Shown: piece after piece, positions 861-17,140 of the stretch
Layout of the letters: each line of letters opens with the position of its first letter
How positions within the stretch are numbered: the first letter of the stretch is position 1
IMG/VR virus record: IMGVR_UViG_3300032007_004036
DNA: 20,000 bases
Strand: one strand, 5' to 3'
Source of the DNA: an uncultured virus (IMG/VR IMGVR_UViG_3300032007_004036)
Taxonomy: Duplodnaviria; Heunggongvirae; Uroviricota; Caudoviricetes
Notes under the pieces: model-generated
Databases searched by the model: none
Told to the model about the DNA's origin: nothing
The model's input: the letters and a program-made list of their open reading frames with translations, nothing else
Position numbers and translations under genes: made by a program

Positions 861-3800
861 ATGTGGAAGAATACTCACAAAAAACTTAGCTCAAGGGCGC
901 TGTCAGCACTTGCTGCTTCTGCTGTTGCAGGCAGTCAGTTCCTTGCTGCTATGCCGTACAGCGCTGTGGCAGCAGAAGCCGAGATCACCGATGCAGTCAG
1001 ATACGGCGATGCTAACGGCGACGGTGTTATAGACGCTGAGGACGCTGCTGCTATTGAAAAGTACGCAAGAACTTACGATGACGATTCTTTGGATCTTGAT
1101 GCAGCAGACGTTGATCTTGACAGTAACGTTACCCTGCGCGATGCTGAGATAATATATCAGTATTTCAGCGGTCAGGACGTAAAACAGCTCCCGTATAACG
1201 GCTATGTCAATTGGCAGAAGTACCCCGACCCATTGAAATATGAGGTCATAAACGAGGGTATGACTTGGACGGAAGCTGAGGCTTACTGCGAGAACAAGGG
1301 CGGTCACCTCGCTGTTATCACCTCAGAGGAGGAGCAGGCTCAGGTCGAAGCTCTTATTAATCAGCAGTGGGCTCCGTATATCAGAAACAACTACTGGATA
1401 GGTCTGAAAAGAGACAGCAATAATAATTTCGGCTGGGTAACGGGCGAGAAGCTCTCCTACACGAACTGGTGTTCGGATTCCCCGAACAATTCGGACGGAA
1501 GCCAGAATTCAGGCTATCTGTACGGTAATTACTATGAGCCCGCCGACAGGCATATCGGAAAATGGGACGACCTGAACGAAAACGGCGTCTGGAAAAATGA
1601 CGATTTCTTCGGGCTCGACAACTACGGCTTTGTCTGCGAATACGGCGGAAATGCAGTCAAGGACTACCCCATCTGGACAGATGAGAACAGCTTCCCGACA
1701 TCGGGCTGTTACAAGCTCGGCTGCGATATCAAGTCGGGATATGTGACTGTGGACAAATATCTCGACATCGACCTCAACGGTCATTCAGTTGATGTTGAAT
1801 GGATAGACTGCGACGGCAGCGTCACTATCAGGGACACTTCTTCCAAAAAGAATGGTGAGATACATAATTCGGGCGCAGTCCCGATTTTTGACGTTCGCGG
1901 CAAGCTTACTGTTTACGGAGGAAACATAAACGGTAATGCAGAAAACAATAATGACGCTGTAATAAATGTAATAGGTTCGGGCTGCTTTGAAATGTACGGC
2001 GGAACTGTCACATCATACGGCAGCCCTGCGCTCTCACTCGCTGAAAGCAGCGGAACAGCGCTCCTTGCAGGCGGTACTCTCAAAAACACCGATAGCGGCA
2101 CAGAAACTTCTGTTGAAGACAGCGCGGCTGTATATGCCGATGAATCGTATTCGGGAACTCTCAATATCACAGGTTCGCAGATATCCTCCGAGACAGGTGC
2201 GGGCATCTTCTCCAAAGCCGATAAAGGCTGTATCAATATCAGCGGCGGTAAGATAACAAGCGATGAAAGCTACGGTATCTGCTGCACAGCGGGCATACCG
2301 ATAAACTTTGAAAAGAAGGTGTATATCGTCGGAAAGAACGGCGGCATCTACCTTCCCAAGGGCAAAAAGATAAACCTCACAGGCAAGATAAGCAGCATAA
2401 ACACAAGCGTCTATGCTGAGGATTCGGGCGTTATCACCGAGGGCTTCAAAGAACTCGGATACGGAAGCTCTGTCGTGCCGTATCTCAGCAGCGCAGGCGT
2501 CAACGGTACTATCTCGCTTGACGAGAGCGGAGAGCTCCGCATAGACATTGACGAGGACGTTCCTGCCGAAACAACAACTTCTGCAACAACCACTACAACT
2601 ACTTCAACATCAACCTCATCAACTACCACTACTACTTCTACAACTACCACGACCTCTGCAACAACAACTTCAACTACAACGTCAACAACCACAACTTCTA
2701 CAACTACTACAGCAGAAACTACCGCCGCAGCTACTACAACAAATACCGACCCTGTGCCTCCCGCTCCTCATAAGCTCGATATCGACGGCGAGATGACCGT
2801 AAAGGAAATGGACCTCGATGAGATAATCGCGGCAGGCATCGACCTCGGCGACGAGGAAAACTACCACGTCTTTAAATATGAGCTGAAAATGACTTTTGAT
2901 GCTCAGCCCGTCGTCATCACAAAATACGAGGTCGAGAGCGGTTCGTCGGGAAGTTCGGGCTCCGTCAGCGGAAGATACTGTTACGGCTCTCCGATAATTA
3001 CTGTTGGCGGTATGCCTGTAAGGGTCATCGGCTATCAGGAAACAGCTCACGAAGAGATGTACATGGTCATCAAGGGCGAGTGCAAATGGCTCAAGGAATT
3101 CTACGACGTACAGCTTATCGTGATAAACAAGGACGGTTCGGGCGAAAGCCTCACCGACTGCACTGCAACTCTGAACTCTCCCGAGGGTCTTACCCTTATG
3201 AACTGCGACAGAGTTCAGCACTTCGATAAGCTTGAAGCAGGCAGCCCTTATATGATACACTGGTATCTGCGCGGCGATGAAGCAGGAGACTATGACCTCA
3301 CAGCTCAGCTCAAAGGAAATAGCGGCGGCGAGGAGTACACCTACGATTTCAAGTCGAAGAACACTCTCCACGTCTACGCAGGAAATGCTCTCAAAATGAA
3401 GATAACCCTTCCGAGATATTCCTTCTACGATGAGGATTACCCCGTAAAAATAAGCTTCACCAACGTTTCCGACAAGCCCATTTACAACATCGAGCATACT
3501 ATTTTCGGCTTCACTCAGGATTCAAAGCTGACGATCAACAGATACAAAGACGGTAAGCTTGTAAGCACGGAGGAAAACTACGAAAACCTTCAGGACGTTA
3601 CACTCAACAAGAGCTGTTTTGTTGAAGAGCTTGACCCCGGCGATACGCTCGTTGCCGAGGTGACTATCCACGATATCTGGAATTCTATCCTCGAAAAGAA
3701 CATCAACGAAATGAAGAAAGCAGCTGACATGATAACACTTATGAGCTGCGCTTCAAGAGATGAATACGGTCTCGCTATCAATCTCTCGTCTACCATCTGC

Positions 3801-5340: not shown

Positions 5341-6936
5341 TTAGCGCTGTATTCCCATTATATCATAAATTGAGTATTGACCATTACGTGTCAATTCGAG
5401 CCAATCGCGCTTCATAGATTCTACATTGGTGGTCATTGACTTCATGAAGCCTTTCATAGAATTGTTCCCTCTGAGCTTATCCTCGTAGCACTTGGCATTT
5501 TGGCATTTATTATCAAAGTCTGTCAGTAGTCTGTTATAGCCATTAACAAACTTCTCAATAAGATTTGGGTGCATTTGGATACGTTTTATCTTTTCTATAT
5601 TTTCAACGATATCTCGTCTGAAGATAAAATCATTACGGGTTTTGTAGAGAATATCCTTATTTTGTTCGATAGCTTTTCGATTTGCCTCTGCATATTCTCT
5701 TGAAGTAAAAACGACTCCCATTATAGTACGATATTCAATATCATATTTATTGAGCTTATCATCAATTTGTTTATACAGAACAAGTGCGTTATTCTGTGAT
5801 AATGAATACTCTTTTACAAATTCTTCTGTTTCTATGCGAAGTTTTTTTGCAGCTTCTTCATTTGTCCCTATATTCTTAGAGATGTAATCTTTGAAAATAG
5901 CAACACATCTTTCTTGAATAAACTGTTCTGCCTCTTGCTTGCATTTTTCAGGAAAGCCAAGTTCAGCAATAACATCATTCAAAAGCTTTCGGCAGCTTTT
6001 TACATCATCAGGTGTAGTACCTATATTGGCTATAGCGACTTTTTTTACGATCTCTGACAATTCATCAGTCAGATCAACTCCCATATAGTTGGCTATAGCG
6101 ATTATTTCTTTGGAATTCTTTAAGTATTTTTTGATGAATGCGATATAGTATTCAGATTGATATGGGTCGAGTGTCAGAATGTTTAATGATAATTCCTTAT
6201 TCTTTTCTTCAGTTAATTGCATAGTATTGATATTATTGAATATAGCTCTTGCTTTTTGTTTCTCTTCAGTAGTGATGGCGTCATTGATTTTGAATGTATT
6301 AATCATTATAATACCAATACTCTGAGCAGATTCACGAACACCATTAATTATTTTTTGTTTATATTCAGAATTGTTGGAAAACGCTGCTATTTCGTTTGTG
6401 AATTGAGAAGAGGCTTTAGAAATTGCGGCGGCGGCTGTAGCAGTTCCAGCGCCAATGAGAGCAAGACCTAAAAGACCTCCGCCTATACCACTGGCATTAG
6501 TTCGCCAGTCAGTTTTTCGATCAATATTTGAAATCGTAGCATTTCTTTTCTGAATTATCGAATTATATGCATTAGAGTATTCTCTAATAGCTGAATTAGC
6601 TTTATCATAACACTTCTTCTGCTCACAAATCTTTTTAACAGTGGCTTCATCTAAAGTATAACAGTCGACAGAAACAGCATCTTTGACAATTTCTTTGAAG
6701 ATATCATCGTAAGAAGCGGCTACATCTGACCCAAAATTATTGATTATGCTTTCAACGTTTTGATGTTTGCGTATCTTATCTGCATATTTATTAGAAGCGA
6801 TAAGTGCAAGTTCATTATATTTCTTCTTTACCTGAGAATAAACTCGACGCTTAGTAGGAATTATAAGAGTATTTCCAAGGAAGGGAAATTCAATATTATT
6901 TTGATTCTCAGAAATTATTTCATTTAAGCTTTTCAT
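5341..6936 (-). CDS. Hypothetical all-helical protein with single Gly/Ala-rich hydrophobic segment (531 aa)
   Basis: Long ORF with GAAAGGAG RBS. The segment GIGGGLLGLALIGAGTATAAAAIS is flanked by coiled-coil-like sequence, and there is a TPR-like LDPY motif. No signal peptide. Confidence 0.8.
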   Translation of the reverse strand: MKSLNEIISENQNNIEFPFLGNTLIIPTKRRVYSQVKKKYNELALIASNKYADKIRKHQNVESIINNFGSDVAASYDDIFKEIVKDAVSVDCYTLDEATVKKICEQKKCYDKANSAIREYSNAYNSIIQKRNATISNIDRKTDWRTNASGIGGGLLGLALIGAGTATAAAAISKASSQFTNEIAAFSNNSEYKQKIINGVRESAQSIGIIMINTFKINDAITTEEKQKARAIFNNINTMQLTEEKNKELSLNILTLDPYQSEYYIAFIKKYLKNSKEIIAIANYMGVDLTDELSEIVKKVAIANIGTTPDDVKSCRKLLNDVIAELGFPEKCKQEAEQFIQERCVAIFKDYISKNIGTNEEAAKKLRIETEEFVKEYSLSQNNALVLYKQIDDKLNKYDIEYRTIMGVVFTSREYAEANRKAIEQNKDILYKTRNDFIFRRDIVENIEKIKRIQMHPNLIEKFVNGYNRLLTDFDNKCQNAKCYEDKLRGNNSMKGFMKSMTTNVESMKRDWLELTRNGQYSIYDIMGIQR

Positions 6937-6963
6937 TTTTTCTCCTTTCAGGGTTCAAGACCA

Positions 6964-7083
6964 TTAATCATTAAAAGAGACGAATTGTTTGCTGACGTAT
7001 CCATAATAATCAATATCGCCTTTCGCTGCCATTACAAAAACTGACCATTTATCGTTCTTCAAGATGGGATTTAAGTGTTTTTT
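6964..7083 (-). pseudogene. Remnant C-terminal half of an SH3b-like domain
   Basis: Reads KKHLNPILKNDKWSVFVMAAKGDIDYYGYVSKQFVSFND*, which parallels TNNEWCYIR...IYGYVSSKYISISE* at the end of the 11448-12536 protein. Confidence 0.55.
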
Positions 7084-8685
7084 TCAAAGATTTGTTTTCT
7101 TAGCACCACAGTTATTACAGAAATTACCAATAATATTAGTATTACCGCAGGAACAATCCCATGTAGCAGATGCTTCCGGCTTTTTAGCTCCGCACATATT
7201 GCAGAAATTGCCAATGACTCCCTTGTTGCCGCATGAGCAGTCCCATGTCTGCGGAGGCTCGGGCTTTTTGCTTCCACAGTTATTGCAGAATAATCCCGTA
7301 GCATTATTTCCACAGCTGCACTGCCATGAATTAGATGACGGCTGCGGAGCAGGTGAGCTTTCAGAGAATGTATTGGGCTGAATTCTACCAAACATATTTC
7401 CAAACTGTGGTGCAATATTCTGTGCAGCCGCAAGACCTAATCCCATACCAAGCATATCACCCATTACTCCTCCGCCTGAACCATTAATTGTCATATTACC
7501 TATGCCCTCAGCGTATGCTTTTTGAACTTCAGCCTGCAAAACATCTTTCTGATTATAACCCTTAGCATGCATTATCTCTGCTTCTGTGAGACCATGCAAA
7601 CGCTGAGCCTGAGCCTCCGCTTGAGCTTCAATTATTCGGCGTTCAGCTTCACGTTTAGCTATCTCCGTTTCAGTGAGCTGACGCTGTAACTCGGCATCGC
7701 GTTTAGCAGCTTCGATTGCCGCCTTGCTTTTTTCCTGTTCAGTTCGATAAAGAGTCTCTGATTGCGCTTGAGCCACTTTTACATCGGCCTCAGCCTGCAA
7801 GACTTTTTGCTGTAATGTAACGGTATGCAGTTCTCGTATACGTCTAAAATTAGGATCAGCTTCTGGGAGTATAATGCTTGTAACATAAAACTGAGGGATT
7901 GTCAGGCCATATTCCTCGAATCCGGGGAGTATTTTTTCTCTCAGATTTGATGATATCAAGTCAAGCTTTTCGTCTATTTCAAGGAGGTCTATGTTATTCT
8001 GTTTGATGACAGATGTCAGATTCGTCTTGACTGCATTTGATATAAGCGGACGGAATGCGAGCTGAAGTGACTTTGCAAATCCATTTCCAGTATCGTTCCA
8101 AGCAATTCCTGTCATCGTTCCTACTACATTCAAAAGCAGCTTTTCAGGATCGCTGACAGCAAGGTTCATCTCGCCGCAGGCACCAATTTCAAGCGGCGTT
8201 GAAGTCAGTGGATCAATAAAACGAACCTTGTCCGGTGTTCCCCATTTAACGCCCATCTGAACGGTTTTATTAATAAAATATACTTCACAGGAGAAAATCG
8301 TATCCGAATTGATAGCATGTGCAATCAACTTTCTCAGCAGTGGGATATTCTGAGTGATTAGAGTATGGCTTCCGGCAGTGAAACGATCGCACATCTGACC
8401 GTTTTTGAAAAATACTGCTTCCTGTGATTCGTGAACAATCAACTGAGAACCAATGTTGAAGTTTTCAAGCGGATGTTTCCAGATAAATGTATTATTGTCG
8501 CCTTCATACTTTATGACAGAGATAAGTCCCTTATTGCTTTCCTCATACATTGCAACAGCCTTTGCAACGTCAATGACCGAATTACACATAGGACATACAT
8601 ATCTATCCGGAAGCGATGTAAATAAACCATCGGCAAGTTTAGTCATTCTGCCGCAGGTCGGGCATTTTATAGTATGTTTGCTCAT
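7084..8685 (-). CDS. SPFH/Band-7 (YdjI-like) protein with N-terminal Zn ribbon, coiled coil and three C-terminal Zn ribbons
   Basis: N-terminal CPTC..CPMC. SPFH motifs GSQLIVHESQEAVFFKNG, EVYFIN and KWGTP. AEA-rich coil and GMGLGLAAA segment. Three WxCxCG...FCNxCG units at ~81-84 bp period (7087-7326). GAAAGGTGG RBS. Confidence 0.88.
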   Translation of the reverse strand: MSKHTIKCPTCGRMTKLADGLFTSLPDRYVCPMCNSVIDVAKAVAMYEESNKGLISVIKYEGDNNTFIWKHPLENFNIGSQLIVHESQEAVFFKNGQMCDRFTAGSHTLITQNIPLLRKLIAHAINSDTIFSCEVYFINKTVQMGVKWGTPDKVRFIDPLTSTPLEIGACGEMNLAVSDPEKLLLNVVGTMTGIAWNDTGNGFAKSLQLAFRPLISNAVKTNLTSVIKQNNIDLLEIDEKLDLISSNLREKILPGFEEYGLTIPQFYVTSIILPEADPNFRRIRELHTVTLQQKVLQAEADVKVAQAQSETLYRTEQEKSKAAIEAAKRDAELQRQLTETEIAKREAERRIIEAQAEAQAQRLHGLTEAEIMHAKGYNQKDVLQAEVQKAYAEGIGNMTINGSGGGVMGDMLGMGLGLAAAQNIAPQFGNMFGRIQPNTFSESSPAPQPSSNSWQCSCGNNATGLFCNNCGSKKPEPPQTWDCSCGNKGVIGNFCNMCGAKKPEASATWDCSCGNTNIIGNFCNNCGAKKTNL

Positions 8686-8715
8686 TTATTTATCCACCTT
8701 TCCAAAGAGGTTTTT

Positions 8716-11418
8716 TTAATTTCCAAAGAATGCTTGTTTAAGTATTCCGCCAATAGTATATTTTATTTTATACGGCTTTCCATTATTAGGGGGATAAACA
8801 ACAAATTCACCCACTCTATTACCGTTTTCCCATCTTCCAGCATATCTTGTGCCGTCTTTATCAAAATAAACTCCTGTGCCATGGCATTTATTGTTAGCCC
8901 AGTTACCTTTGTATATAGTACCGTCTGTATTGACACAGATTGCATATCCATTTAATTGATTATTAATGAAATTTCCTTCATTAACCAAACCGTTATCCAG
9001 TTCAAGTTTACCTTTTCCGTGCCTTTTTCCGTTTATTATTTCACCGGTGTATTTTCCATTGGTGTACGCTACAATACCTCTGCCTGTCCAGAATTCATCA
9101 TCTTTGAATTCACCTTCAAACGTTCCTCCGGCTTTATAAGTCACCTTTCCTTTTCCTTGGCGGTTATTATTCTGCCATTCACCTTCGTATATATCTCCGT
9201 TTTGATATATCATTTTTCCATAACCGTTGCGTTTCCCTTCAGATACAGTTCCGTTGTATGACCTACCGTCATTTAAGTAAATTAAACCATTACCAGACCA
9301 GAAATCATCATTTTTGAATTCGCCTTCAAATACCTCTCCGTTCGTATAAGTTACCTTACCCCTGCCTTGACGTTTACCATTTAGCCACTCCCCTTCGTAT
9401 ATATCTCTGGTTTTACATATAAATTTTCCGTAGCCGTTGAATTTCCCTTGAGATAATTCTCCATTGTATGATACTTTATCAGAGTAAATGACTAAGCCCT
9501 TGCCAGACCAGAATTCATTATCTTTGAATTCGCCTTCAAAAACCTCTCCGGTTGCGTATGAAACTTTTCCTCTTCCATTACGTTTATCATTCACCCATTC
9601 TCCTGTATAGGAATTACCGTTTTTTGTTATCAACTCGCCATTTCCGTGTCGATTATCGTTCAACCAATCTCCTTCGTATACATCACCATTTTCATACATC
9701 AGCTTTCCTTTACCATTGAACTTACCTTCACTTAATTCACCAATGTATGAGTTCCCGTCAGAGAAGTTAACCAAGCCCTTACCACTCCATGGGATTTCAT
9801 CTTTAATCTCACCTTCAAATGTTTCTCCGTTTTTATACATGATCTTTCCTTGGAAATGACGTCCTTTATCCGACCATTCTCCTTCATAAACGTCTCCGTC
9901 CTGATCTATGAGTTTTCCATTACCGTTAAGAGAACCTTCTAGTATTTCTCCTATGTATGAGGGACCGTCAGGATAGTTGACAAGACCGTTTCCTTTCCAG
10001 ACAACACCGTCCTTGAATTCACCTTCAAACGTCTCTCCGGTCGTATATATTATTTTTCCGCTGCCATTAGCCTTGTCGTCAGCCCATTCTCCTTCGAAGA
10101 TTTCTCCAGTTGTATATTTGATTTTTCCTTTGCCATTGCGCTGACCTTCGGATAATTCACCAGTATATGCTCCGTCAGAGTAATTAATCAGACCGTGCCC
10201 CGACCACCTTTTATCATCCTTAAATTCACCTTCAAATGTCTCACCGTTTACATATAGAATTTTTCCTTTTCCATGGCGCTTATCGTTAATCCATTCTCCT
10301 TCATATACATCGCCATTTTTGTATGTTAGCTTTCCTATACCATGTCGATTACCAAGTTTCCATTCACCTTCATATATATTACCACTGCTATACTCAATAC
10401 GTCCTTTTCCGTTTGGCTTACCGGCAAAAGTTTCTCCGCTATACATTCCATTATCAATAATGAGTTCTTTTGTTTCACGGCTATTCTGAGAGCTGCTTTG
10501 CGGTTTAGCCGGTGCTTCTGTTTCAGTTTTAACGATCTTCTTGATGCCTCTTACAAGATCCTGCATAAAGCCGAGCTTGGACATATCCTGTGCCTGAAAC
10601 ATCGAAAGCGCGTCTGGCAGTTCATAAGGATCCATATCTTTGTATGCAGGGATTATGGTACGACTGCGATCCTCCTGCATGAGCATAAGATAACGCGACC
10701 ATTCGTTGCGCACCCATACGGCATTGTAATAATCTGGTTTTGTACCAATAACAACCATGACCTTAGAACTCTTAAGTGCAGCAAATATGTAAGGCTCATA
10801 TTCGCTTCCAAGCTTTGATTCGAGTGTAATACGCGAAAAGAACACCTTGAACCCTTCCTGTGTGAGACCATAGTAAAGTTCCTGCGCAAGAACTGAATCG
10901 CGTGTGCGTCTTCCGTCCTCGTCAGTTTCCTTGTAACATATGAAAACGTCAAACGGCTCTTCCTTTTTGGATATTTCAATAATTCCTTTTTGCACATTGT
11001 CGATGTAAGCAGCCTCGCTTTCATAAATGCTTCGTTGTAGCAGATCAGCATATTCAAGTGCAATATGGTAGTCGGGATCATCCAATATCGAACGAATCTG
11101 TGTGCGATGACAGGTAGGTATTTTTTTCTTTGTAAGAGGATCGTCAACGTATTCTATTCCATATCTGCATAATAACATTGACCAATAAAGCTCAGAATCG
11201 CCTTCAGAACTGTTTGACATTTTTTCATAAATCTCTGCCGCCTTATCAAATTCGCACTGTTGACGAAAATGATTTGCGCGGTTAAACATATTCAGGTTAC
11301 GTTCATTATCGGTTTTGGGGAGTGTTTGCTTGGTGCCGCAATATTCACATTCGCAAATCGTCATTCCTTCAGATATCTCAAGCGTACCTCCACACATTTT
11401 ACATTTATATACTGCCAT
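8716..11418 (-). CDS. Zn-ribbon-TPR-TIR-MORN repeat protein (900 aa)
   Basis: CKMC..CEYC Zn ribbon and TPR-like helices. TIR at aa ~155-295 (FDVFICYKE, VFFSR, WVRNEW with Glu239). 24 MORN repeats (YEGEW..GKRHGKG type). AAGGAG RBS. Confidence 0.92.
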   Translation of the reverse strand: MAVYKCKMCGGTLEISEGMTICECEYCGTKQTLPKTDNERNLNMFNRANHFRQQCEFDKAAEIYEKMSNSSEGDSELYWSMLLCRYGIEYVDDPLTKKKIPTCHRTQIRSILDDPDYHIALEYADLLQRSIYESEAAYIDNVQKGIIEISKKEEPFDVFICYKETDEDGRRTRDSVLAQELYYGLTQEGFKVFFSRITLESKLGSEYEPYIFAALKSSKVMVVIGTKPDYYNAVWVRNEWSRYLMLMQEDRSRTIIPAYKDMDPYELPDALSMFQAQDMSKLGFMQDLVRGIKKIVKTETEAPAKPQSSSQNSRETKELIIDNGMYSGETFAGKPNGKGRIEYSSGNIYEGEWKLGNRHGIGKLTYKNGDVYEGEWINDKRHGKGKILYVNGETFEGEFKDDKRWSGHGLINYSDGAYTGELSEGQRNGKGKIKYTTGEIFEGEWADDKANGSGKIIYTTGETFEGEFKDGVVWKGNGLVNYPDGPSYIGEILEGSLNGNGKLIDQDGDVYEGEWSDKGRHFQGKIMYKNGETFEGEIKDEIPWSGKGLVNFSDGNSYIGELSEGKFNGKGKLMYENGDVYEGDWLNDNRHGNGELITKNGNSYTGEWVNDKRNGRGKVSYATGEVFEGEFKDNEFWSGKGLVIYSDKVSYNGELSQGKFNGYGKFICKTRDIYEGEWLNGKRQGRGKVTYTNGEVFEGEFKNDDFWSGNGLIYLNDGRSYNGTVSEGKRNGYGKMIYQNGDIYEGEWQNNNRQGKGKVTYKAGGTFEGEFKDDEFWTGRGIVAYTNGKYTGEIINGKRHGKGKLELDNGLVNEGNFINNQLNGYAICVNTDGTIYKGNWANNKCHGTGVYFDKDGTRYAGRWENGNRVGEFVVYPPNNGKPYKIKYTIGGILKQAFFGN
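8790..10443 (-). repeat. MORN repeat array with a 3-unit (~210 bp) super-period
   Basis: GAATTC(A/G)CCTTCAAA recurs at 9106, 9316 and 9526; there are six FEGE(F/I)K..W-type units. Confidence 0.85.
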
Positions 11419-11447
11419 GATTAATACTCCTTATAGTTTTTCCTATA

Positions 11448-12536
11448 TTATTCGCTGATTGAGATATATTTTGAGCTGACATATCCATAAATGACAATAC
11501 TATTGCCCCCTCCCATTGGGTTCTCTCTAAAAGTGTACCATCTGATATAGCACCATTCATTGTTCGTACCAAGTACCTCAACAGAAGCTCCTTTAGGTAT
11601 TTCATCTGCGACTTCAAAATCTGTACCCGGTCCACTTCTCAAATTTAGGCTGGTTGATTCGGTTTCAACTACACCTCGTTTTATGTCTGAATCCCCATAG
11701 AACTCCATATCAGATGGAGCGTTTTCACTGTCAAAAAAGCCTGAATACGGATTAGAACTATTGACGGTTTGGTTATTAATCGGATGCTCCTCATTGATAG
11801 ATGTTGTTTTATCACTGGAATTTGTTGTTTCTTCATTGATTATTTTAAGTTCTGAATCATTTATTATAACTGCTGGAAAACCATCTTCATTTGAAGAGAA
11901 TAAGCGTTCTCCATATGAATTAATCCAATTATCCAAATCGCTATTATATGACCAACCATTATGAAATGTTAGCATACTACCTGGCTTAATTGTAGATGTC
12001 AAACTATTCTTATTTGAAGACAAATCGTGATAAAACTTTTGAATCTCATACCGTGTATCAGGTTGATAGTATGAGATTTCAATGATTCCATCTTTTTGTA
12101 CTACGCTCTTGTTTTCAAATGAATAATATGAATCCGGCAACTGCGTAAGCTCTTGGATAGTGTTGCCTTCATTATCAATTATCAAATAATACATATATAA
12201 GTCATCGTCTTCAATCAAAAACAATATGTTATCATCAAACGATTCACACCAATAATAGTGACCATTAAGCGCAGATAAACAATCATAAACTTGTGCCTTC
12301 GGAATGTTTAATAAATAATATTGATTCGTTTTTGATTCCTTATAAATCACATGTTCTTCATCTAAATATCTTAAATCAGTATATTCTCCGTTACCTAATG
12401 AATTAAAATCAAATACTGTTCCATCAGGCAAACTAAGATATGGTGAAGCAAAGAAGAAACCACTATTATATGGATACTTTGTTTTATCATCAAATCCATT
12501 ACCATCGTTTCTTTTAACAGCTGATTCAAAAAACAT
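11448..12536 (-). CDS. SH3b-domain protein (probably the 3' part of a split gene)
   Basis: C-terminal LNLRSGPGTDFEVADEIPKGASVEVLG..W...GYVSSKYI is an SH3b motif. No signal peptide and no properly spaced RBS (AAGAGG abuts the ATG). Confidence 0.75.
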   Translation of the reverse strand: MFFESAVKRNDGNGFDDKTKYPYNSGFFFASPYLSLPDGTVFDFNSLGNGEYTDLRYLDEEHVIYKESKTNQYYLLNIPKAQVYDCLSALNGHYYWCESFDDNILFLIEDDDLYMYYLIIDNEGNTIQELTQLPDSYYSFENKSVVQKDGIIEISYYQPDTRYEIQKFYHDLSSNKNSLTSTIKPGSMLTFHNGWSYNSDLDNWINSYGERLFSSNEDGFPAVIINDSELKIINEETTNSSDKTTSINEEHPINNQTVNSSNPYSGFFDSENAPSDMEFYGDSDIKRGVVETESTSLNLRSGPGTDFEVADEIPKGASVEVLGTNNEWCYIRWYTFRENPMGGGNSIVIYGYVSSKYISISE

Positions 12537-12581
12537 CCTCTTATCGGTATTATATGTCGTTTTTAATCGGTATGAGTATTC

Positions 12582-13262
12582 TCAAGGAGACAGTGCACCA
12601 CCGCCAAACCCAGCACCAGGCGAAGGTACGCCCATTGCTTCAGTCATTGCTTTTTCAGATACTCTCCAGCCATCGTCAGAAAAGTAAATAACATCAAAAT
12701 TAATGATTTCTTTCTCATCATCCTTGCTTTGAGGTTTTACTTCAACTTCAAGTGCATAACCTTTTTCTATCTTCGGACACTCTCCAGAAAAATTATACGA
12801 GTAATATGACTGAAGTGAATTAATATTATAATCATCCAATTCCGTTTTCCCCTTGATTTTGAATTTTATTTTATAATTTTTTTCAAACATCTTCATTATT
12901 TCCATCGTAGCCCCCCAGTTGCTATTAAAACTATCGATTTTATTTTGACCGATATTGTGATATTGTTCTGATGGCAATGTGCATTTGAACATCAAATCCC
13001 CGTCAACTTTGTTTAATGCTTTTTCAAAATCATTCACAGCGCTTTTATAGCTGGAATAATAAATCCTTCTTCCGCTACTCTTACTACTGTTCTCATTTGT
13101 AGAAGACGGCGATAAAATAAATGAAAAGCCACAACATGAACAGCACCCGAAAACCATTACAAATAAGATTACCAAACCAATCCATAGTAATGTTGAACCT
13201 GATTTAGAACCATTGTTTTCCATAGTCTGAGAGCCATTTGAATTAGGCATAGTATTATTCAT
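12582..13262 (-). CDS. Single-pass membrane protein (226 aa; start at 13262)
   Basis: AAGGGG RBS before ATG 13262. TM helix LLWIGLVILFVMVFG followed by CCSCC, then a small domain ending DDGWRV. Confidence 0.75.
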   Translation of the reverse strand: MNNTMPNSNGSQTMENNGSKSGSTLLWIGLVILFVMVFGCCSCCGFSFILSPSSTNENSSKSSGRRIYYSSYKSAVNDFEKALNKVDGDLMFKCTLPSEQYHNIGQNKIDSFNSNWGATMEIMKMFEKNYKIKFKIKGKTELDDYNINSLQSYYSYNFSGECPKIEKGYALEVEVKPQSKDDEKEIINFDVIYFSDDGWRVSEKAMTEAMGVPSPGAGFGGGALSP

Positions 13263-13296
13263 TATTCTTTCCCCTTGTGCTATAATAGAATTACAC

Positions 13297-13325
13297 ATGA
13301 TATGCACTGCCGCAAATTTCTGCAA
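13297..13325 (-). promoter_or_regulatory. Candidate promoter for TIR/SPFH operon, -35 inside left inverted repeat
   Basis: Minus strand TTGCAG (13325-13320), 17 bp, TATCAT (13302-13297). Confidence 0.45.
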
Positions 13326-13326
13326 T
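13309..13326 (+). repeat. Left arm of 18-bp perfect inverted repeat
   Basis: GCCGCAAATTTCTGCAAT is the exact reverse complement of 14677-14694. Confidence 0.9.
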
Positions 13327-13347
13327 CAAAGTCAACCCCTCACTTTT

Positions 13348-14487
13348 TTACCGAAAAACAGGTATTTTTACTGCAACATCTGACGATAATTCTGACGGCG
13401 AATACACTTTTGATTCAAGCAACTCCATACACGCTATCTTACGCTCCATAGAGGTATGAACATAGCGATTCAGCGTAGTTTCCACGCTCGCGTGACCGAG
13501 TATCTCCGAAAGCGTCTTCACATCGAATCCTGCTTGAAGACAATTCGTAGCAAATGCGTGGCGAAGGCTATGATAGCTGACTGACGGTAAATCTGCTTTT
13601 TTCAGTATTTGTTTGAAACGTCTCTGCAAGGTTCTTGGTTCAATTACTATCTCAGAATTCGATAAAACATAATGATTATCAGCGCTGCGGGATTCCCGCA
13701 GCAGCTTCATAATAAATTTTGTTATTGGAATAGTGCGCTTTGATGTGCGGCTTTTCGGAGTATCTGCTATAATGCGTGTTTTGTGGCTTTCAGTACGTAT
13801 ACGCTGAACTGTTCGTCTGACGGTTATTATGCTTTTCTCAAAGTCAATATCTCGCCACATCAGACCGCAGACCTCACCTACACGAAGTCCCGTATACAAG
13901 CTCAGGAGTATACATAGAGCTGTCGGACTTAGGTTCTTTGTAAGGAACTTGCATAGCTGCCACTGCTGAGTATTTGAAAGCAAGGGCTTCTCTTTTTTCT
14001 GCACTTTAGGAAGTGACACATCTGCCAATATATTGCGAAATCCGTGAATTTTAGATATATACTTAGCCATAGTTTTGAAAACGATAATAATATCTGAAAC
14101 ATACTTCGCGGATAGTCCTCCATCAAGCTTTTTCTGAATATAGCTGTTAATCATCTGCACCGTCAGGGAATCATAGCGAAGTCCGCCAAATTCAGGCATG
14201 ATATGCTTTTCGACCTTCATCTGATAGTTTGCGTAGGTTGAGAGCTTCACTCGAAGCTTTACTGCTGACAGCCACTCGTCAAATAGCTCTTTTACCGTCA
14301 GGCGGCAAGTGGTTTGAGGAGCGGTGACATTCACCTTCAAATCAACAAGCTTTGAACGCACCTCTGTGTAGGAGTGTCCGTATACAGAGCGATATTTAGC
14401 CTTTCCGTAGTCATTATATCCGCATTTATACCGTCCCTCCCAGCGTCCGTCCTTGCGTTTATAAATGTTTTCTCCGCGGCGAGCCAT
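13348..14487 (-). CDS. Tyrosine recombinase/integrase (379 aa; start at 14487)
   Basis: AAGGAGGAGG RBS. N-terminal arm-binding-type MARRGENIYKRKDGRWEGRY. Catalytic residues intact: GLRVGE (R), TPKS (K), HSLRH, LGH, RYVH (Y). Confidence 0.95.
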   Translation of the reverse strand: MARRGENIYKRKDGRWEGRYKCGYNDYGKAKYRSVYGHSYTEVRSKLVDLKVNVTAPQTTCRLTVKELFDEWLSAVKLRVKLSTYANYQMKVEKHIMPEFGGLRYDSLTVQMINSYIQKKLDGGLSAKYVSDIIIVFKTMAKYISKIHGFRNILADVSLPKVQKKEKPLLSNTQQWQLCKFLTKNLSPTALCILLSLYTGLRVGEVCGLMWRDIDFEKSIITVRRTVQRIRTESHKTRIIADTPKSRTSKRTIPITKFIMKLLRESRSADNHYVLSNSEIVIEPRTLQRRFKQILKKADLPSVSYHSLRHAFATNCLQAGFDVKTLSEILGHASVETTLNRYVHTSMERKIACMELLESKVYSPSELSSDVAVKIPVFR

Positions 14488-14676
14488 AGCTCTTCCTCCT
14501 CCTTGACCATATTCCTGACGCACTAAAACTGTTATTTGTAACAAAGCAGACCGGTTCTGATTGTCGAAACTGCTGATTTTTATTTCTTATTAGTGAACAA
14601 TTATCAAAATCTGTTGAATGATATTTCTTTTTATGTTAAAATCGTACATATAAAGTTCAACGTATGATCGCCGTGA

Positions 14677-14694
14677 ATTGCAGAAATTTGCGGC
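14677..14694 (-). repeat. Right arm of 18-bp perfect inverted repeat
   Basis: ATTGCAGAAATTTGCGGC is the reverse complement of 13309-13326. Confidence 0.9.
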
Positions 14695-14702
14695 GAATTT
14701 TT

Positions 14703-14731
14703 TTGACAATGAGACGCAGATATGGTACACT
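14703..14731 (+). promoter_or_regulatory. Sigma-A-like promoter of NTPase gene
   Basis: TTGACA (14703-14708), 17 bp, TACACT (14726-14731), with extended TG. Confidence 0.7.
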
Positions 14732-14772
14732 TATTACATCAATTAAATCATATCATGACGGAGAATAGAATC

Positions 14773-14802
14773 TGCCGCAAAAACAGCATGATTTGCCGCA
14801 AA
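14773..14802 (+). promoter_or_regulatory. 9-bp direct repeat TGCCGCAAA x2 with 12-bp spacer (putative protein-binding site)
   Basis: Copies at 14773-14781 and 14794-14802, immediately before the GGGAGG RBS. Same core as the 18-bp inverted repeat. Confidence 0.65.
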
Positions 14803-14818
14803 TATCGGGAGGTGTGAT

Positions 14819-17140
14819 ATGCTTTCCTTGAATGTTGTATTATCGCTTATAATGCAGGCGAAGCGAAAAGGTAAGGGCATTCTTTCAAACGGAACTGTTT
14901 ATGCTATGCTTATGCTCTGTATTTCGGACTTTTCGTGTGAAAACGAACTTCTGAAATGCTTCAATAATGAGGTCGTTCCGAAAGAAGCAAACAGAAAGCT
15001 TGAAAGATATTTGAGTCGTTTTTTCAGGGACGGCAAAGGGTATCCGTATAATCTGATATGCTTTTCTGAATTTGAAAGCTGTATCGGCAGTACCGATAAA
15101 ATGGCGGTATACTGTCGAAAGCTCAGAACAGTCCTTGACAGTTTTATAGATGAGCAGAAGACAGAGTCGCTTGTATTTACACTTCTCGAGCTTCTGAGAA
15201 ATGACAGGAATGTCGATAAAATAGTTTACGGAAGTGGATATATCCGCAAAGAGGAAATGTTTGGGAGCAGCGCACATCAGAAGCGTATATGCGTAGAAGC
15301 GCTGCTCCTTGGAATGCTCTATCTATGCCATAAAACTGCTGATATATCCCCAAAAACAGAACTTTTGGAATATGTGGGAAAAAGGGCTTTTTTCACCGTC
15401 AGATTCTCTGATAGTACTTCATTTGACCTTGAATACAAGGTCGATGTTATTGAAAATATGTTTGCAGCAGCCAAACGTCAGCAACTGAAAAAACTGCGCT
15501 ATCCGCTTGAATTATGTGTTGACGGAGAAGTAACTGGAGAACTGCCAAAAAACGGCGATCTCTTCCTATGTGGAGTTCACGGCTCGGGCAGAACATCGCT
15601 TATGAAAAGTATCATAAACTCCGACGATTCAGCATTTATCTATATTCCGCTCGAGGGCTATACTTCCGAATTCCACAGCGAATTCAGCAATGAGCCATGC
15701 TGGGTACTCTTAAACGCTTTGATGAAATACCATTATCAGGACGAATATCGGTCATTTGAAATGCTTGTCTTATCCGAAGGCAGGGATACCGCTTTACAGC
15801 AGCTCACAAGTCTTAGCAGGGAATTCAGAAATAAGCCTGTTCACAGCCGCAGCTGGACACTGCTGCTTGACGGACTGAACGACATTGATATCAGCAGCCA
15901 AGAGACATTTATCAGTGAATTGGAGTATATCCATAAAAACTGGAGCAATGTCCGTATCATTGTTTCGGGGTGTGCTGTTCCGAAGAACGATATTTTCAAT
16001 GAGTTCATCATAGCTGAAATTATCGGTATACCGTCGGACTACATAAATGAGAGGTTTGCTGAGAGTAATATAAGCACTGAGCTTAGAGAAATGCTGAAAA
16101 TGCCGGCATTACTTGATATTTACGAAAACAACAGCGACAGTATAAAAACACGGGGCGAGCTGCTTGATGCATTTTTTAATGAATGGCAAGGCAGTGACAC
16201 TGTACGCTTTCTTGTTCAGTTTGCTCTCCCAATGATTGCTAAAAGAATGCTTGAGGATTCCTCGCTTGACAAGCTTTCAAGAGCGGAGGTAATAAAGCTC
16301 ATCAATACAGCTGTCAGAATATACATCAAGAATGATTATGTTTATCAGAGCTGTATTTCAGTTAAAGGCATAGATAAAAAAATCCTGCTCGAAAGCAGGA
16401 AGAATCATAACTGGATAGATATACTTCTGAAAAACACCGGACTTATGGTCGAAGATGATGCAGATGATCTTTCTTTTGTAAACAGATCGTTCCGCGATTA
16501 TTTTGCTGCAAAACACATCATCAATGCCATAGGTATCTTTGAGGACGGCTGCATTATTGCACACGATAATGAGAAATACTTTGAGGAGATAGGTCTTTCC
16601 GGTATATGGTTCGACAATATAGATTTATTCCCTGAGAAACGTAATGTTTACAGGCTTATCGGTGAATTGTGCCGGGAATATGTCAAGAAAGCCGGCAGTG
16701 AGAAACTCTACACAAAGAATCAGCTTGACAGATTCCTTGATATCTGCCGAGGTTTAATAAACGGATACAACGTTGAAAATATCATCACTGTAAGAAAAAT
16801 AATACATAATAACATGGTTTTTCATACGGATTTCGGCTGGCTAAATACACCGCTGCTGCTCCCGTCTGACGTTACGTACAGTTTAGACGGAGAATATCCG
16901 TGTGATTTCTATGGTTGCAGGATATACCGTGTTGCTGACAGCGACAATGATAGTATCTTCAGGAATTGTGACTTTTCAGATGCTGTTTTCCTCGATATGG
17001 AAATAAAGGAAAAGATACATCAGCTTGGCGGTATAGTTGATTTTGAGGATGACAGCTTCATGGATGAGAATTACCGTGAGATGATACTTCCATGGATCAA
17101 ACCGATTCCGCGCAGCAGTTATACTTCCGCGGAAATATAG
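14819..17140 (+). CDS. Degenerate NACHT/STAND-like P-loop NTPase (773 aa)
   Basis: Walker A GVHGSGRT and Walker B LLLDGLND. IIVSG, LKMPALL and FVNRSFRDYFAA (compare FxHxSFQEYFAA). Short pentapeptide-like tail (FRNCDFSDAVF). Confidence 0.7.
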   Translation: MLSLNVVLSLIMQAKRKGKGILSNGTVYAMLMLCISDFSCENELLKCFNNEVVPKEANRKLERYLSRFFRDGKGYPYNLICFSEFESCIGSTDKMAVYCRKLRTVLDSFIDEQKTESLVFTLLELLRNDRNVDKIVYGSGYIRKEEMFGSSAHQKRICVEALLLGMLYLCHKTADISPKTELLEYVGKRAFFTVRFSDSTSFDLEYKVDVIENMFAAAKRQQLKKLRYPLELCVDGEVTGELPKNGDLFLCGVHGSGRTSLMKSIINSDDSAFIYIPLEGYTSEFHSEFSNEPCWVLLNALMKYHYQDEYRSFEMLVLSEGRDTALQQLTSLSREFRNKPVHSRSWTLLLDGLNDIDISSQETFISELEYIHKNWSNVRIIVSGCAVPKNDIFNEFIIAEIIGIPSDYINERFAESNISTELREMLKMPALLDIYENNSDSIKTRGELLDAFFNEWQGSDTVRFLVQFALPMIAKRMLEDSSLDKLSRAEVIKLINTAVRIYIKNDYVYQSCISVKGIDKKILLESRKNHNWIDILLKNTGLMVEDDADDLSFVNRSFRDYFAAKHIINAIGIFEDGCIIAHDNEKYFEEIGLSGIWFDNIDLFPEKRNVYRLIGELCREYVKKAGSEKLYTKNQLDRFLDICRGLINGYNVENIITVRKIIHNNMVFHTDFGWLNTPLLLPSDVTYSLDGEYPCDFYGCRIYRVADSDNDSIFRNCDFSDAVFLDMEIKEKIHQLGGIVDFEDDSFMDENYREMILPWIKPIPRSSYTSAEI

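What the first reader, a model, noticed from the sequence alone, without database searches (positions are those of the whole stretch)
13309..14694. Tyrosine recombinase gene bracketed by a perfect 18-bp inverted repeat: candidate self-inverting switch between a TIR/SPFH operon and a STAND NTPase
Seen: GCCGCAAATTTCTGCAAT at 13309-13326 and its exact reverse complement at 14677-14694 enclose only the intact recombinase gene and its upstream region (~1.39 kb). The recombinase stop is 21 bp from the left arm, with no visible terminator. Known: tyrosine recombinases invert DNA between inverted sites (FimB/FimE, Bacteroides invertons). Inference: flipping would redirect the cassette's transcript from the TIR-MORN/SPFH operon into the NACHT-like/SRAP side, giving phase-variable choice between two signalling or defence arms. 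The alternative is that the repeats are paired operators.
Basis: partly seen in the sequence, partly recalled or inferred. Interest (0 to 1): 0.85.

Follow-up and report, generated by a model that had tools for sequence, protein, structure and literature searches.

The report
Self-flipping promoter cassette with own recombinase
A 1.39-kb DNA cassette in a rumen Ruminococcus carries its own recombinase gene and an outward-facing promoter between two inverted recombination sites, and flipping it most likely turns a neighbouring TIR/SPFH gene cluster on or off.

Summary
A perfect 18-nt inverted repeat (13309-13326 / 14677-14694) encloses only an intact 379-aa tyrosine recombinase gene and its 190-nt leader.

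The repeat is a family trait. Homologous cassettes in rumen Ruminococcus carry co-varying inverted sites at the same places. Several are found in both orientations between the same two flanks, with exact exchange inside the shared core (L014/L028, L010/L020, L010/L016).

A conserved outward promoter sits in the leader, on the strand opposite the recombinase (21 of 21 cassettes).

- **As assembled:** the promoter runs into the right site, which folds as a 12-bp hairpin followed by U7. The NACHT-fold NTPase gene beyond it has its own promoter.
- **After flipping:** the promoter would read through a 92-nt leader into the promoter-less orf226-SH3-TIR/MORN-SPFH operon.

The same design recurs in 17 of 21 distinct flank pairs: one terminating flank and one cargo flank.

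No flipped copy of this particular locus was seen, and there are no expression data.

Earlier agents of this scan noted the same kind of cassette on other DNA. I found no description of it in the papers I searched. I read it as a Hin-like design built on a tyrosine recombinase, here placed between immune-like genes.

The parts
13309..13336 (.). Left recombination site, at the 3' end of the recombinase. It holds the outer half-site GCCGCAAAT, a spacer of about 7 nt (TTCTGCA) and a divergent inner half (ATCAAAGTCAA).
   Evidence: The inner half fits variants seen in the wider family, such as L064.
13348..14487 (-). Tyrosine recombinase gene, 379 aa, intact.
   Evidence: Pfam Phage_integrase 102.7 bits and Phage_int_SAM_3 46.2 bits. 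Translation. The R, HxxR, H and Y positions align with XerA 5hxy. The protein is below NCBIfam cut-offs for the Xer, integron and FimB/E-type families.
14488..14676 (-). 189-nt leader of the recombinase, with conserved blocks. It includes a candidate recombinase promoter, a conserved tAAAATCaGCAG block near 14572-14589.
   Evidence: Alignment of 21 leaders. The promoter assignment is inference only.
14614..14642 (+). P_out, the outward promoter: TTGAAT, a 17-nt spacer, then TGtTAAAAT. It lies on the strand opposite the recombinase and reads out through the right site.
   Evidence: Found by the promoter scan. Present at a fixed place in 21 of 21 cassette leaders.
14668..14704 (+). Right recombination site. 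It is a full dyad of two inverted half-sites round the spacer; the 18-nt arm is 14677-14694. A run of 7 T follows at 14698-14704. In the P_out transcript this forms a 12-bp hairpin plus U7, an intrinsic terminator.
   Evidence: Terminator scan. Fold of the stretch holding the hairpin: -17.2 kcal/mol, z-score -2.29. Hairpin alone: -16.4 kcal/mol directly before the U-run.
14703..14731 (+). P_N, the NACHT-like gene's own promoter (TTGACA, 17-nt spacer, TGgTACACT), starting 8 nt from the site.
   Evidence: An equivalent TTGACA-17-TAAAAT promoter is present in the N-type flanks of L013 and L014.
14774..14802 (+). Two direct copies of the half-site motif GCCGCAAA, 21 nt apart, between P_N and the ribosome site of the NACHT-like gene.
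   Evidence: Conserved before N homologues in L014/L028 and L065/L066. Their function is not known.
14819..17140 (+). NACHT-fold P-loop NTPase gene (773 aa), a recurrent partner at the P_out end of these cassettes.
   Evidence: Pfam NPHP3_N is below cut-off. Walker A and B motifs. AlphaFold2 model pLDDT 84.8. Foldseek hits to NOD2, NLRC4 and NLRP3, E 3e-8. Homologues sit next to the cassette in 10 of 30 genus loci.
13278..13286 (+). P_in, an inward-facing extended -10 promoter (TGCTATAAT) in the left flank, 22 nt from the site. As assembled it reads antisense into the recombinase gene.
   Evidence: The same feature occurs in 12 of 22 flank clusters. The two-hexamer scan did not list it.
5341..13262 (-). 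Cargo operon: orf226 (12582-13262), SH3 protein (11448-12536), TIR-MORN protein (8716-11418), SPFH/Band-7 protein (7084-8685) and orf531 (5341-6936, after a 147-nt gap). The ribosome site of the first gene abuts P_in, which leaves no room for a promoter of its own.

Best explanation
The segment 13309-14694 is a self-contained invertible promoter cassette. It encodes an intact tyrosine recombinase. That enzyme recombines the two inverted lox-like core sites at the cassette ends and so flips the whole 1.39-kb segment.

The cassette's regulatory output is P_out, a near-consensus promoter in the leader on the strand opposite the recombinase.

As assembled (the 'parked' state), P_out points at the NACHT-like gene. 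Its transcript ends at once at the right site, which folds into a 12-bp hairpin followed by U7. The NACHT-like gene runs from its own promoter. The orf226-SH3-TIR/MORN-SPFH operon has no promoter of its own. It gets at most read-through from the recombinase gene, and that is opposed by the inward promoter P_in.

After inversion, P_out lies at the left end. It reads through a 92-nt leader without a terminator into the TIR/SPFH operon (ON). P_in then reads the recombinase gene in sense. I infer that this raises recombinase levels and biases the switch back to the parked state, so that only a minority of cells express the operon.

Shown: the anatomy, its conservation, and inversion of homologous cassettes between the same flanks.

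Inferred: that this copy still flips, that the predicted promoters and terminator work, and the feedback role of P_in.

My odds: the cassette type inverts, 0.9. This copy is still competent, 0.7. P_out versus terminator is the ON/OFF logic for the TIR/SPFH operon, 0.6. P_in gives orientation-dependent control of the recombinase, 0.35.
For: 1. The inverted repeat is exact and far beyond chance.

2. The recombinase is intact. Its Pfam domains are above cut-off, and the R, HxxR, H and Y positions align with XerA.

3. Flanking inverted sites are a family trait, and their sequences co-vary. An exact inverted repeat of 11-19 nt lies about 190 nt upstream of the start and 20-50 nt after the stop in 7 of 11 first loci. 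One of 12 nt or more is found in 19 of 29 testable genus loci. The arm and spacer sequence changes from cassette to cassette but matches within each.

4. With loci oriented by the recombinase, both flanks are swapped and reversed in three pairs: L014 vs L028 (flanks 96.6 and 96.8% identical), L010 vs L020 (93 and 94.6%) and L010 vs L016. One shared flank changes ends in several more pairs. The four junctions of L014/L028 and of L010/L020 show exchange exactly inside the shared 19- or 17-nt core.

5. P_out (TTGNNN, 17-nt spacer, TGnTAnnnT) is present at a fixed place in 21 of 21 leaders.

6. In the window, P_out meets a -16.4 kcal/mol hairpin plus U7. After an in-silico flip there is no hairpin followed by a U-run between P_out and the orf226 start.

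7. Of 21 distinct flank pairs, 17 combine one flank with a T-run next to the site with one 'cargo' flank. A cargo flank has an inward extended -10, a start-codon and ribosome-site complement, or both. In 14 of the 17 the T-run flank is at the P_out end. These loci are related genomes and are not independent.

8. In 12 of 22 flank clusters the outward gene's ribosome site abuts an inward promoter. None of these 12 has an outward extended -10.

9. In L012 the recombinase is decayed and the far site is lost. P_out there faces a cargo-type operon, as expected for a switch locked ON.
Against: No flipped copy of this particular cassette was seen. Every copy with this NACHT flank has that flank at the P_out end: the window, L001/L009, L019 and L025. 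So do all 10 genus loci with an N homologue. Only L028, a 53% identical N homologue, is reversed.

The inversions documented are between genomes or contigs 77-97% identical. They prove site-specific inversion in the lineage, not rapid switching within a clone.

The window's left flank (orf226 plus SH3) was not found in the 151 genus genomes searched, so this flank pair cannot be compared elsewhere.

The inner half of the left site differs from that of the closest relatives. Homology with the 96% identical G001 cassette stops at the recombinase stop codon, 20 nt short of the site.

All promoters and the terminator are sequence predictions, and no RNA data exist. P_in in the window is an extended -10 only and was not listed by the two-hexamer scan.

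In the ON state P_in and P_out would face each other about 80 nt apart, so the net output is uncertain.
Confidence: 0.68

Rival explanations
1. The recombinase transcript has no terminator and feeds the TIR/SPFH operon as assembled. After flipping it feeds the NACHT/SRAP side, so cells choose between two arms.
For: No terminator lies between the recombinase stop and the left site. After an in-silico flip only a weak hairpin (-5.8 kcal/mol) precedes the U-run toward the NACHT gene. The genes on both flanks read outward.
Against: The NACHT-like gene has its own near-consensus promoter 8 nt from the site. The conserved strong promoter of the cassette points the other way (21 of 21). Read-through toward the operon would meet the convergent P_in. 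The candidate recombinase promoter is weak and less conserved. The flanks are not equivalent: one kind terminates and the other is cargo.
Confidence: 0.15
2. This copy is a fossil switch. It belongs to the invertible family but no longer flips and is fixed in the parked orientation, so the TIR/SPFH operon is silent or expressed in some other way.
For: All observed copies with this NACHT flank have one orientation. The inner half of the left site and the 21 nt before it are unlike those of the 96% identical relative. Decayed members of the family exist, for example L012.
Against: The recombinase reading frame and catalytic positions are intact. The outer half-sites and spacer are identical over 18 nt, better than in the G001 copy (9 nt). 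The inner half fits variants used elsewhere in the family.
Confidence: 0.2
3. The cassette is a mobile or integron-like platform. Together with the NACHT gene it moves between loci, or it captures alternative operons at its site. On this reading the repeats are ends or attachment sites rather than switch sites.
For: The recombinase-plus-NACHT block (13346-17126) is 96% identical in G001, but both outer flanks differ there. Flanks are re-assorted among cassettes that share a spacer. Up to 9 homologues occur per genome. With P_out next to a cargo operon the layout resembles an integron: divergent integrase, promoter, site, cassette.
Against: Copies within one genome are diverged. The two G001 copies are about 72% identical in DNA. 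No second site was found at the far end of the window's operon. The breakpoint between the window and G001 lies 20 nt inside the cassette, not in the core. Sites in inverted orientation give inversion, and same-flank inversions are what is seen.
Confidence: 0.07
4. The repeats are paired operators. They are binding sites of a regulator, or of the recombinase acting only as a repressor, that co-regulate the two flanking transcription units without any DNA inversion.
For: The arms lie 8 nt from the -35 of the NACHT promoter and at about +1 to +20 of P_in. Two more half-site copies sit before the NACHT gene's ribosome site.
Against: Exact reciprocal exchange inside the core is seen in homologous cassettes. 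The right site has the two-half-sites-plus-spacer anatomy of tyrosine-recombinase cores. The enzyme keeps its catalytic residues. A repressor role may be added to recombination but cannot replace it.
Confidence: 0.03

Closest known systems
Salmonella H segment (Hin recombinase, hixL/hixR, promoter of fljBA). My own knowledge; a passage of PMC5903667 names Hin as the example of a recombinase located within the invertible segment.
   Same: An invertible segment of about 1 kb is bounded by inverted sites. It carries both its own recombinase gene and an outward promoter that drives genes outside the segment in one orientation only.
   Different: Hin is a serine recombinase that needs an enhancer and Fis. 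Here the enzyme is a tyrosine recombinase with lox-like core sites. Here the promoter is divergent from the recombinase and parks against a terminator formed by the site itself. Cargo flanks carry an inward promoter.
E. coli fimS switch with FimB/FimE (my own knowledge; NCBIfam 'tyrosine-type DNA invertase' models)
   Same: Tyrosine recombinases invert a promoter-bearing element. FimE expression depends on switch orientation, and I propose the same kind of dependence here through P_in.
   Different: fimS is 314 bp and the recombinase genes lie outside it. The window's recombinase scores 19-21 bits against these models, whose cut-offs are 221-222 bits. It has an N-terminal SAM-like domain and is about twice as long.
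Clostridia 'inverton group 139' linked to tyrosine 'invertase group 35' (PMC11892184, passages read), and C. difficile RecV switches (PMC5903667, passages read)
   Same: These are invertible promoters in Clostridia that are flipped by tyrosine recombinases.
   Different: Those invertons are about 250 bp, and the recombinase is beside them or elsewhere in the genome. Here the recombinase gene is inside the inverted segment of 1.39 kb. As I recall, default short-inverton searches would not reach that size. I could not test whether invertase group 35 is related to this protein.
Pneumococcal SpnIII/ivr hsdS inversions with a locus-encoded tyrosine recombinase (passage in PMC11868660; PMC7096588 seen in a search listing only)
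   Same: A tyrosine recombinase encoded within the switching locus inverts DNA between inverted repeats.
   Different: There the repeats lie inside hsdS coding sequences and shuffle protein domains. Here the sites are intergenic and move a promoter.
Cre/loxP and FLP/FRT core sites (my own knowledge)
   Same: Two inverted recombinase-binding half-sites of about 10-11 nt flank an asymmetric spacer of about 7 nt. Identity of the spacer defines partner sites.
   Different: The far site keeps only one good half-site. The enzyme is of the phage-integrase type with a SAM-like N-domain. No membership in the Cre family was tested.
Cassettes noted earlier in this scan on other DNA (e1-3018850, e1-4184755, e1-4717164, e1-3831267, e1-4296094, e1-7098053, e1-3019020)
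   Same: They have the same design: a 1.3-1.6-kb cassette, a tyrosine recombinase, an outward promoter and inverted core sites, in gut and rumen Clostridia.
   Different: Those sit next to surface-protein, polysaccharide or fibre operons. This one sits between a NACHT-fold NTPase gene and a TIR/SPFH operon. It also adds the terminator-flank versus cargo-flank rule. Those are unchecked AI notes, not publications.

Membership tests
Tyrosine recombinase / phage integrase superfamily (PF00589) | Catalytic domain match above the curated cut-off | tested here: met
   Phage_integrase 102.7 bits against cut-off 27.1. Phage_int_SAM_3 46.2 bits against 22.6.
Tyrosine recombinase / phage integrase superfamily (PF00589) | Catalytic Arg, His-x-x-Arg, His/Trp and the Tyr nucleophile are present | tested here: met
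   In the alignment with XerA 5hxy, TGLRVGE aligns with TGVRVGE, HSLRH with HVLRH, LGHAS with LGHAS, and the Y of RYVH with the Y of IYTH. Which residues are catalytic is established knowledge, not tested here.
Hin/Gin/Cin/Pin invertible segments | Recombinase gene and outward promoter lie inside a segment bounded by inverted sites | tested here: met
Hin/Gin/Cin/Pin invertible segments | Serine recombinase (resolvase/invertase catalytic domain) | tested here: not met
   Only tyrosine-recombinase domains were found. It works like a Hin segment but is not a member.
FimB/FimE-type DNA invertases (NCBIfam NF007370, NF007371) | Score above the curated cut-off | tested here: not met
   19.4 and 21.4 bits against cut-offs 221 and 222.
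XerC/XerD/XerA and integron integrases (NCBIfam) | Score above the curated cut-off | tested here: not met
   The best hit is XerA, 110 bits against 220. XerC scores 102 against 335 and the integron integrase 60 against 265.
Invertible DNA switch (inverton) in general | Both orientations observed between the same flanks, with junctions in the repeats | tested here: inconclusive
   Met for the homologous cassettes L014/L028, L010/L020 and L010/L016. Not seen for this locus: contigs of 4 runs show one orientation only, and Logan contigs drop rare variants.
Invertible DNA switch (inverton) in general | Orientation-dependent expression of a neighbouring gene | not testable with these tools
   No RNA holder was listed. 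Only sequence predictions are available.
NACHT / STAND NTPases (neighbour gene 14819-17140) | P-loop NTPase with Walker A and an hhhhDG-type Walker B, and a NACHT-like fold | tested here: met
   Walker A GxGGSGKT and Walker B LLLDG are conserved (G252, G257 and D351 invariant, K258 nearly so) in 22 sequences. The model has pLDDT 84.8. Foldseek top hits are NOD2, NLRC4 and NLRP3 at E 3e-8. Pfam NPHP3_N scores 18.1 bits, below its cut-off of 24.8.
Thoeris or other catalogued TIR defence systems (operon 5341-13262) | Match to a system protein above cut-off | tested here: not met
   ThcB4 scores 23.8 bits against 220. PADLOC gives only PDC-S66 at E 7e-5 on the TIR protein and nothing on the other eight proteins. 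'Defence' is a resemblance, not a membership.

The most novel reading that the evidence does not exclude
The NACHT-fold NTPase gene is not a bystander. It is a conserved partner of this cassette family, and recombinase half-site motifs sit at its ribosome site. On this reading the NLR-like sensor, the recombinase and the outward promoter form one circuit. Inversion, either stochastic or tuned by the sensor or the recombinase level, deploys interchangeable promoter-less effector operons (TIR/SPFH here, AAA+ ATPase or orf531-like operons in relatives). That would make a modular, phase-variable immune platform in rumen Clostridia, whose cargo is re-assorted by recombination between cassettes that share a spacer.
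Probability: 0.15. Interest if true: 0.85.

Novelty: new variant of a known kind. Interest (0 to 1): 0.62.

Why it matters
Phase variation by DNA inversion is well studied in Enterobacteria, Bacteroides and C. difficile. There the flipped piece is a short promoter element and the tyrosine recombinase sits outside it. Here the whole switch travels as one 1.4-kb unit: enzyme, sites, promoter and a terminator made from the site itself.

The unit is common in rumen Ruminococcus. Of 151 genus genomes searched, 61 have a close homologue of the recombinase, with up to 9 per genome. At 1.39 kb it is, as I recall, longer than the elements that standard short-inverton searches look for.

Its neighbours here are a NACHT-fold NTPase and a TIR/SPFH operon. 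If the model holds, costly immune-like or signalling modules in an important fibre-degrading rumen genus are expressed only in a subpopulation. The rule of one terminating flank and one promoter-less cargo flank would then allow such switched operons to be predicted from sequence alone. The cassette would also be a compact, orthogonal set of recombinase and site pairs, each with its own spacer.

Tried and rejected
Reads. One search for runs and one laying were made. The window comes from a bovine gut metagenome. Contigs of the source sample (X1, X2) and of X4 cover both arms in the reference orientation only, and no strand-changing joints were listed. All four runs are Logan contigs, which drop rare variants, so this does not show that the cassette never flips. 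No RNA holder was listed, so nothing can be said about expression. X3 holds a related cassette whose 3' end joins a different flank from 13315 on. This is the L023-type flank, not an inversion.

Own genome. The window's assembly is not held. The nearest genome is G001.

Same flank elsewhere. The left flank 11448-13308 gave only trivial matches in 151 genus genomes, so no second copy of this flank pair exists to compare.

Rfam. There was no match at E up to 1 in 12500-15300, so no known riboswitch or small RNA explains the conserved leader.

Defence catalogues. PADLOC and NCBIfam gave no membership for any flank protein.

Literature. Six searches and passages of three papers turned up no description of a tyrosine-recombinase-carrying invertible promoter cassette. 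Subscription journals and the supplements of these papers were not seen.

Integron-like capture was rejected as the main reading, because no second site lies at the far end of the operon.

An RNA hairpin in cargo leaders was considered and dropped, because it is not conserved between flanks (sequences, by eye).

I first read the recombinase frame one base off and corrected it.
Full report
**1. The observation**

The two 18-nt arms GCCGCAAATTTCTGCAAT (13309-13326) and its reverse complement (14677-14694) are exact, and 1350 nt lie between them. They enclose one gene, on the minus strand. Its true start is the ATG at 14487 behind GGAGGAGG, and its stop codon is 13348-13350, giving 379 aa (my first translation was one base off).

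The gene carries Phage_integrase and Phage_int_SAM_3 domains above Pfam's cut-offs. Its R, HxxR, H and Y positions align with the archaeal XerA structure 5hxy.

An 18-nt inverted pair is expected 0.005 times in such a window, and 30 shuffles gave at most 16 nt. The stop codon is 21 nt from the left arm, with no terminator-like site between.

**2. Where it comes from**

The window's own assembly is not held. The closest relatives are rumen Ruminococcus of the R. flavefaciens group, and the best-holding public runs are bovine gut metagenomes.

**3. The repeat is a family trait with lox-like anatomy**

I fetched homologous recombinase genes with their flanks. There were 10 loci from genomes, 25 from metagenomes of which 17 are close relatives, and 30 from a sample of 151 genomes of the genus. 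In that sample 61 of 151 genomes have a homologue at E 1e-80 or better, with up to 9 per genome.

An exact inverted repeat sits at the same two places, about 190 nt before the start and 20-50 nt after the stop.
- In the first 11 loci, 7 have one of 11-19 nt, 2 have 9 nt (the same genomic region fetched twice) and 1 has none at that place.
- In the genus loci, 19 of 29 testable ones have one of 12 nt or more, against 8-13 nt in shuffles. The exact-match criterion undercounts, because L066 and L067 have recognisable sites.

The arm sequences differ between cassettes but match within each one. Examples are ...TTTCTGCA in the window...TTTCTACA in L010...TTTCAGCA in L014 and ...TTTCGGTA in L013.

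The site upstream of the recombinase is itself a dyad: two inverted half-sites of about 10-11 nt round a spacer of about 7 nt. The site after the stop keeps the outer half and the spacer, and has a divergent inner half. This is the anatomy of tyrosine-recombinase core sites such as loxP and FRT (my own knowledge).

**4. Homologous cassettes are found flipped**

I oriented all loci by the recombinase and compared them pairwise.
- L014 and L028 share both flanks at 96.6 and 96.8% identity, but each flank is at the opposite end and reversed.
- The same holds for L010 and L020 (93 and 94.6%) and for L010 and L016.
- Further pairs share one flank that changes ends (L016/L027, L028/L029, L027/L030/L031, L012/L017/L035, L010/L011/L022).

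Printing the four junctions of L014/L028 and of L010/L020 shows that each flank is joined to either cassette end exactly within the shared 19-nt or 17-nt core. That is what conservative site-specific inversion produces.

One metagenome contig, L032, has the same 87-nt flank at both ends, identical at 87 of 87 positions. This fits a mix of both orientations in one sample, but it may also be an assembly artefact.

These comparisons are between genomes and contigs, not within a clone.

**5. What the cassette carries besides the enzyme**

An alignment of 21 leaders shows a strongly conserved block on the strand opposite the recombinase: TTGAAa/t, a 17-nt spacer ending in TGn, then TAAAAT. The promoter scan had listed it in the window at 14614-14642. 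A pattern search finds it at a fixed distance from the site in 21 of 21 leaders. I call it P_out. It reads out of the cassette through the dyad site. A weaker conserved block may be the recombinase's own promoter (inference).

**6. The two flanks are of different kinds**

On the right, the dyad is followed at once by seven T and then by TTGACA-17-TGgTACACT (14703-14731), the NACHT-like gene's own promoter. In the P_out transcript the dyad folds into a 12-bp hairpin, -16.4 kcal/mol, directly before U7. The terminator scan lists it.

On the left, the ribosome site and start of orf226 (13262) are followed, toward the cassette, by an inward-facing extended -10, TGCTATAAT (13278-13286), 22 nt from the site. 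This leaves no room for an outward promoter.

The dichotomy is general.
- Among 22 clusters of distinct flanks, 12 have the start-codon and ribosome-site complement plus an inward TGnTAnnnT within 30 nt of the site, and none of these has an outward one. A 13th cluster (L002_up) has the start-codon and ribosome-site complement with an inward -35/-10 promoter pattern but no TGn extension.
- Three to four clusters have the T-run plus an outward TTGACA promoter.
- Among 21 distinct flank pairs, 17 combine one T-run flank with one cargo flank. In 14 of those 17 the T-run flank is at the P_out end.

The loci are related, so these counts are descriptive, not a test.

**7. In-silico flip of the window (sequence built in memory only)**

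With the segment inverted, P_out would be followed by a 92-nt leader up to the orf226 start, with no hairpin followed by a U-run. The recombinase gene would then face the NACHT side, with only a weak hairpin (-5.8 kcal/mol) before the U-run.

**8. Mechanism proposed**

As assembled, the switch is parked. P_out is terminated at the site, and the NACHT-like gene runs from its own promoter. The orf226-SH3-TIR/MORN-SPFH operon is off, or low through recombinase read-through against the convergent inward promoter.

Flipped, P_out drives the operon, and the inward promoter reads the recombinase in sense. I infer that this favours return to the parked state. That would explain why most assemblies show the parked orientation (14 of 17; 10 of 10 genus loci with an N homologue). 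This feedback step is the least secure part.

In L012 the recombinase is decayed and the far site is lost, and P_out faces a cargo operon. This fits P_out being the working promoter of cargo operons.

**9. The neighbours**

The 773-aa protein on the right is below Pfam's cut-off. However:
- 25 homologues exist, one of them named a NACHT domain protein by its source.
- Walker A and B motifs are conserved.
- A model with pLDDT 84.8 matches NOD2, NLRC4 and NLRP3 at E 3e-8, with Avs4 at rank 50.

Homologues of this gene (34-55% identical) sit beside the cassette in many loci, always divergent from the recombinase except in L028.

Two direct copies of the half-site motif lie between its promoter and its ribosome site (14774, 14795). 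The motif recurs before N homologues in L014/L028 and L065/L066. I cannot say whether these bind the recombinase.

The left operon encodes TIR_2 plus 11 MORN repeats, SPFH/Band-7, an SH3 protein and two proteins without a family. Neither PADLOC nor NCBIfam places any of them in a catalogued defence system, so 'defence' is only a resemblance. Homologues of orf531 are the first cargo gene in L014-type loci.

**10. What speaks against this reading for this locus**

- No flipped copy was seen. Contigs of the source sample and of a 97% identical strain show the reference orientation only (contigs drop rare variants).
- All relatives with this NACHT flank are parked.
- The left flank is not found elsewhere.
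- The 96% identical G001 copy shares the recombinase-plus-NACHT block (13346-17126), but both outer flanks differ. Homology ends at the stop codon, 20 nt short of the site. So the window's left junction arose by some event other than exchange in the core.
- Its inner half-site differs from the closest relatives, though it fits variants elsewhere in the family.
- There are no RNA data.

**11. Comparison with what is known**

In design this is closest to the Salmonella H segment, with the recombinase and an outward promoter inside the invertible segment. The enzyme, however, is a tyrosine recombinase, so it is not a member of the Hin family.

It is also not a member of the FimB/E, Xer or integron integrase families by NCBIfam cut-offs.

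Known tyrosine-recombinase switches in Clostridia are short elements with the enzyme outside them (passages of PMC5903667 and PMC11892184).

Six full-text searches found no description of this cassette type.

Earlier agents of this scan noted the same design on other DNA, next to surface-structure operons. I saw those notes only after I had written down my own reading, and they are unchecked notes, not publications.

My verdict is a new variant of a known kind. The particular points of this case are its immune-like neighbours and the rule of one terminating flank and one cargo flank.

Noticed in passing
window 14774-14781 and 14795-14802 (+): Two direct copies of the recombinase half-site motif, 21 nt apart, lie between the NACHT-like gene's promoter and its ribosome site. 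The motif recurs before N homologues only 42-54% identical. It could be a recombinase operator, or a target of the short terminated P_out RNA, whose hairpin arm is complementary to it.
   Followed up: partly
window 13346-17126 vs L001 (G001:C21): The recombinase-plus-NACHT block is 96% identical in the nearest genome, but both outer flanks differ there. The SRAP gene that follows it in the window lies on another contig in G001 (L003). The block behaves as a unit that changes context.
   Followed up: partly
L010, L011, L012, L016, L017, L020, L022, L024, L027, L030, L031, L035: The same flanks occur in different pairings round cassettes that share the spacer TTCTACA or TTCAGCA. This suggests recombination between sites of different cassettes, giving large inversions or exchanges. 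Cassettes within one genome with different spacers would be orthogonal to each other.
   Followed up: partly
L032 (2267-nt metagenome contig): The same 87-nt flank, identical at 87 of 87 positions, is joined to both ends of the cassette. Either both orientations co-occur in that sample or the contig is an assembly chimera.
   Followed up: partly
L012 4001-5260 (R. flavefaciens SAb67): This is a decayed family member. The recombinase frame breaks at 264 aa, the C-terminal end with the catalytic Tyr is lost, and no far site is present. The outward promoter faces a cargo-type operon, so the switch looks locked.
   Followed up: partly
L030 250 and 1635: The two sites of one cassette differ at one spacer position (TTCAGCA vs TTCATCA). 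By the usual rule for tyrosine recombinases this should hinder exchange.
   Followed up: no
window 5341-6936 (-) and L014 5243-7129, L028, L029, L021, L053: orf531, the last gene of the window's operon after a 147-nt gap, has 28-33% identical homologues that are the first cargo gene next to other cassettes. A 49% identical copy lies in G001 (L006).
   Followed up: no
run X3, loose end at window 13315: A contig from another bovine sample joins the 3' end of a near-identical cassette to a different flank, from inside the left arm on. This matches the L023-type cargo flank.
   Followed up: partly
X-type flank (L010 5208-5450, L011 upstream) and Y-type flank (L016 3452-3787): Some non-cargo flanks carry a gene that reads into the cassette and ends within about 30 nt of the site. 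One is a Cro/C1-type HTH gene beside a Fic gene. The other is a YpsA/SLOG-like ORF. P_out would be antisense to them.
   Followed up: no
window 480-5297 (+): A 1605-aa protein carries a C-type lectin domain, a mucin-like region and a C-terminal type I dockerin. It is probably a cellulosome-attached surface protein and lies convergent with the cargo operon.
   Followed up: no
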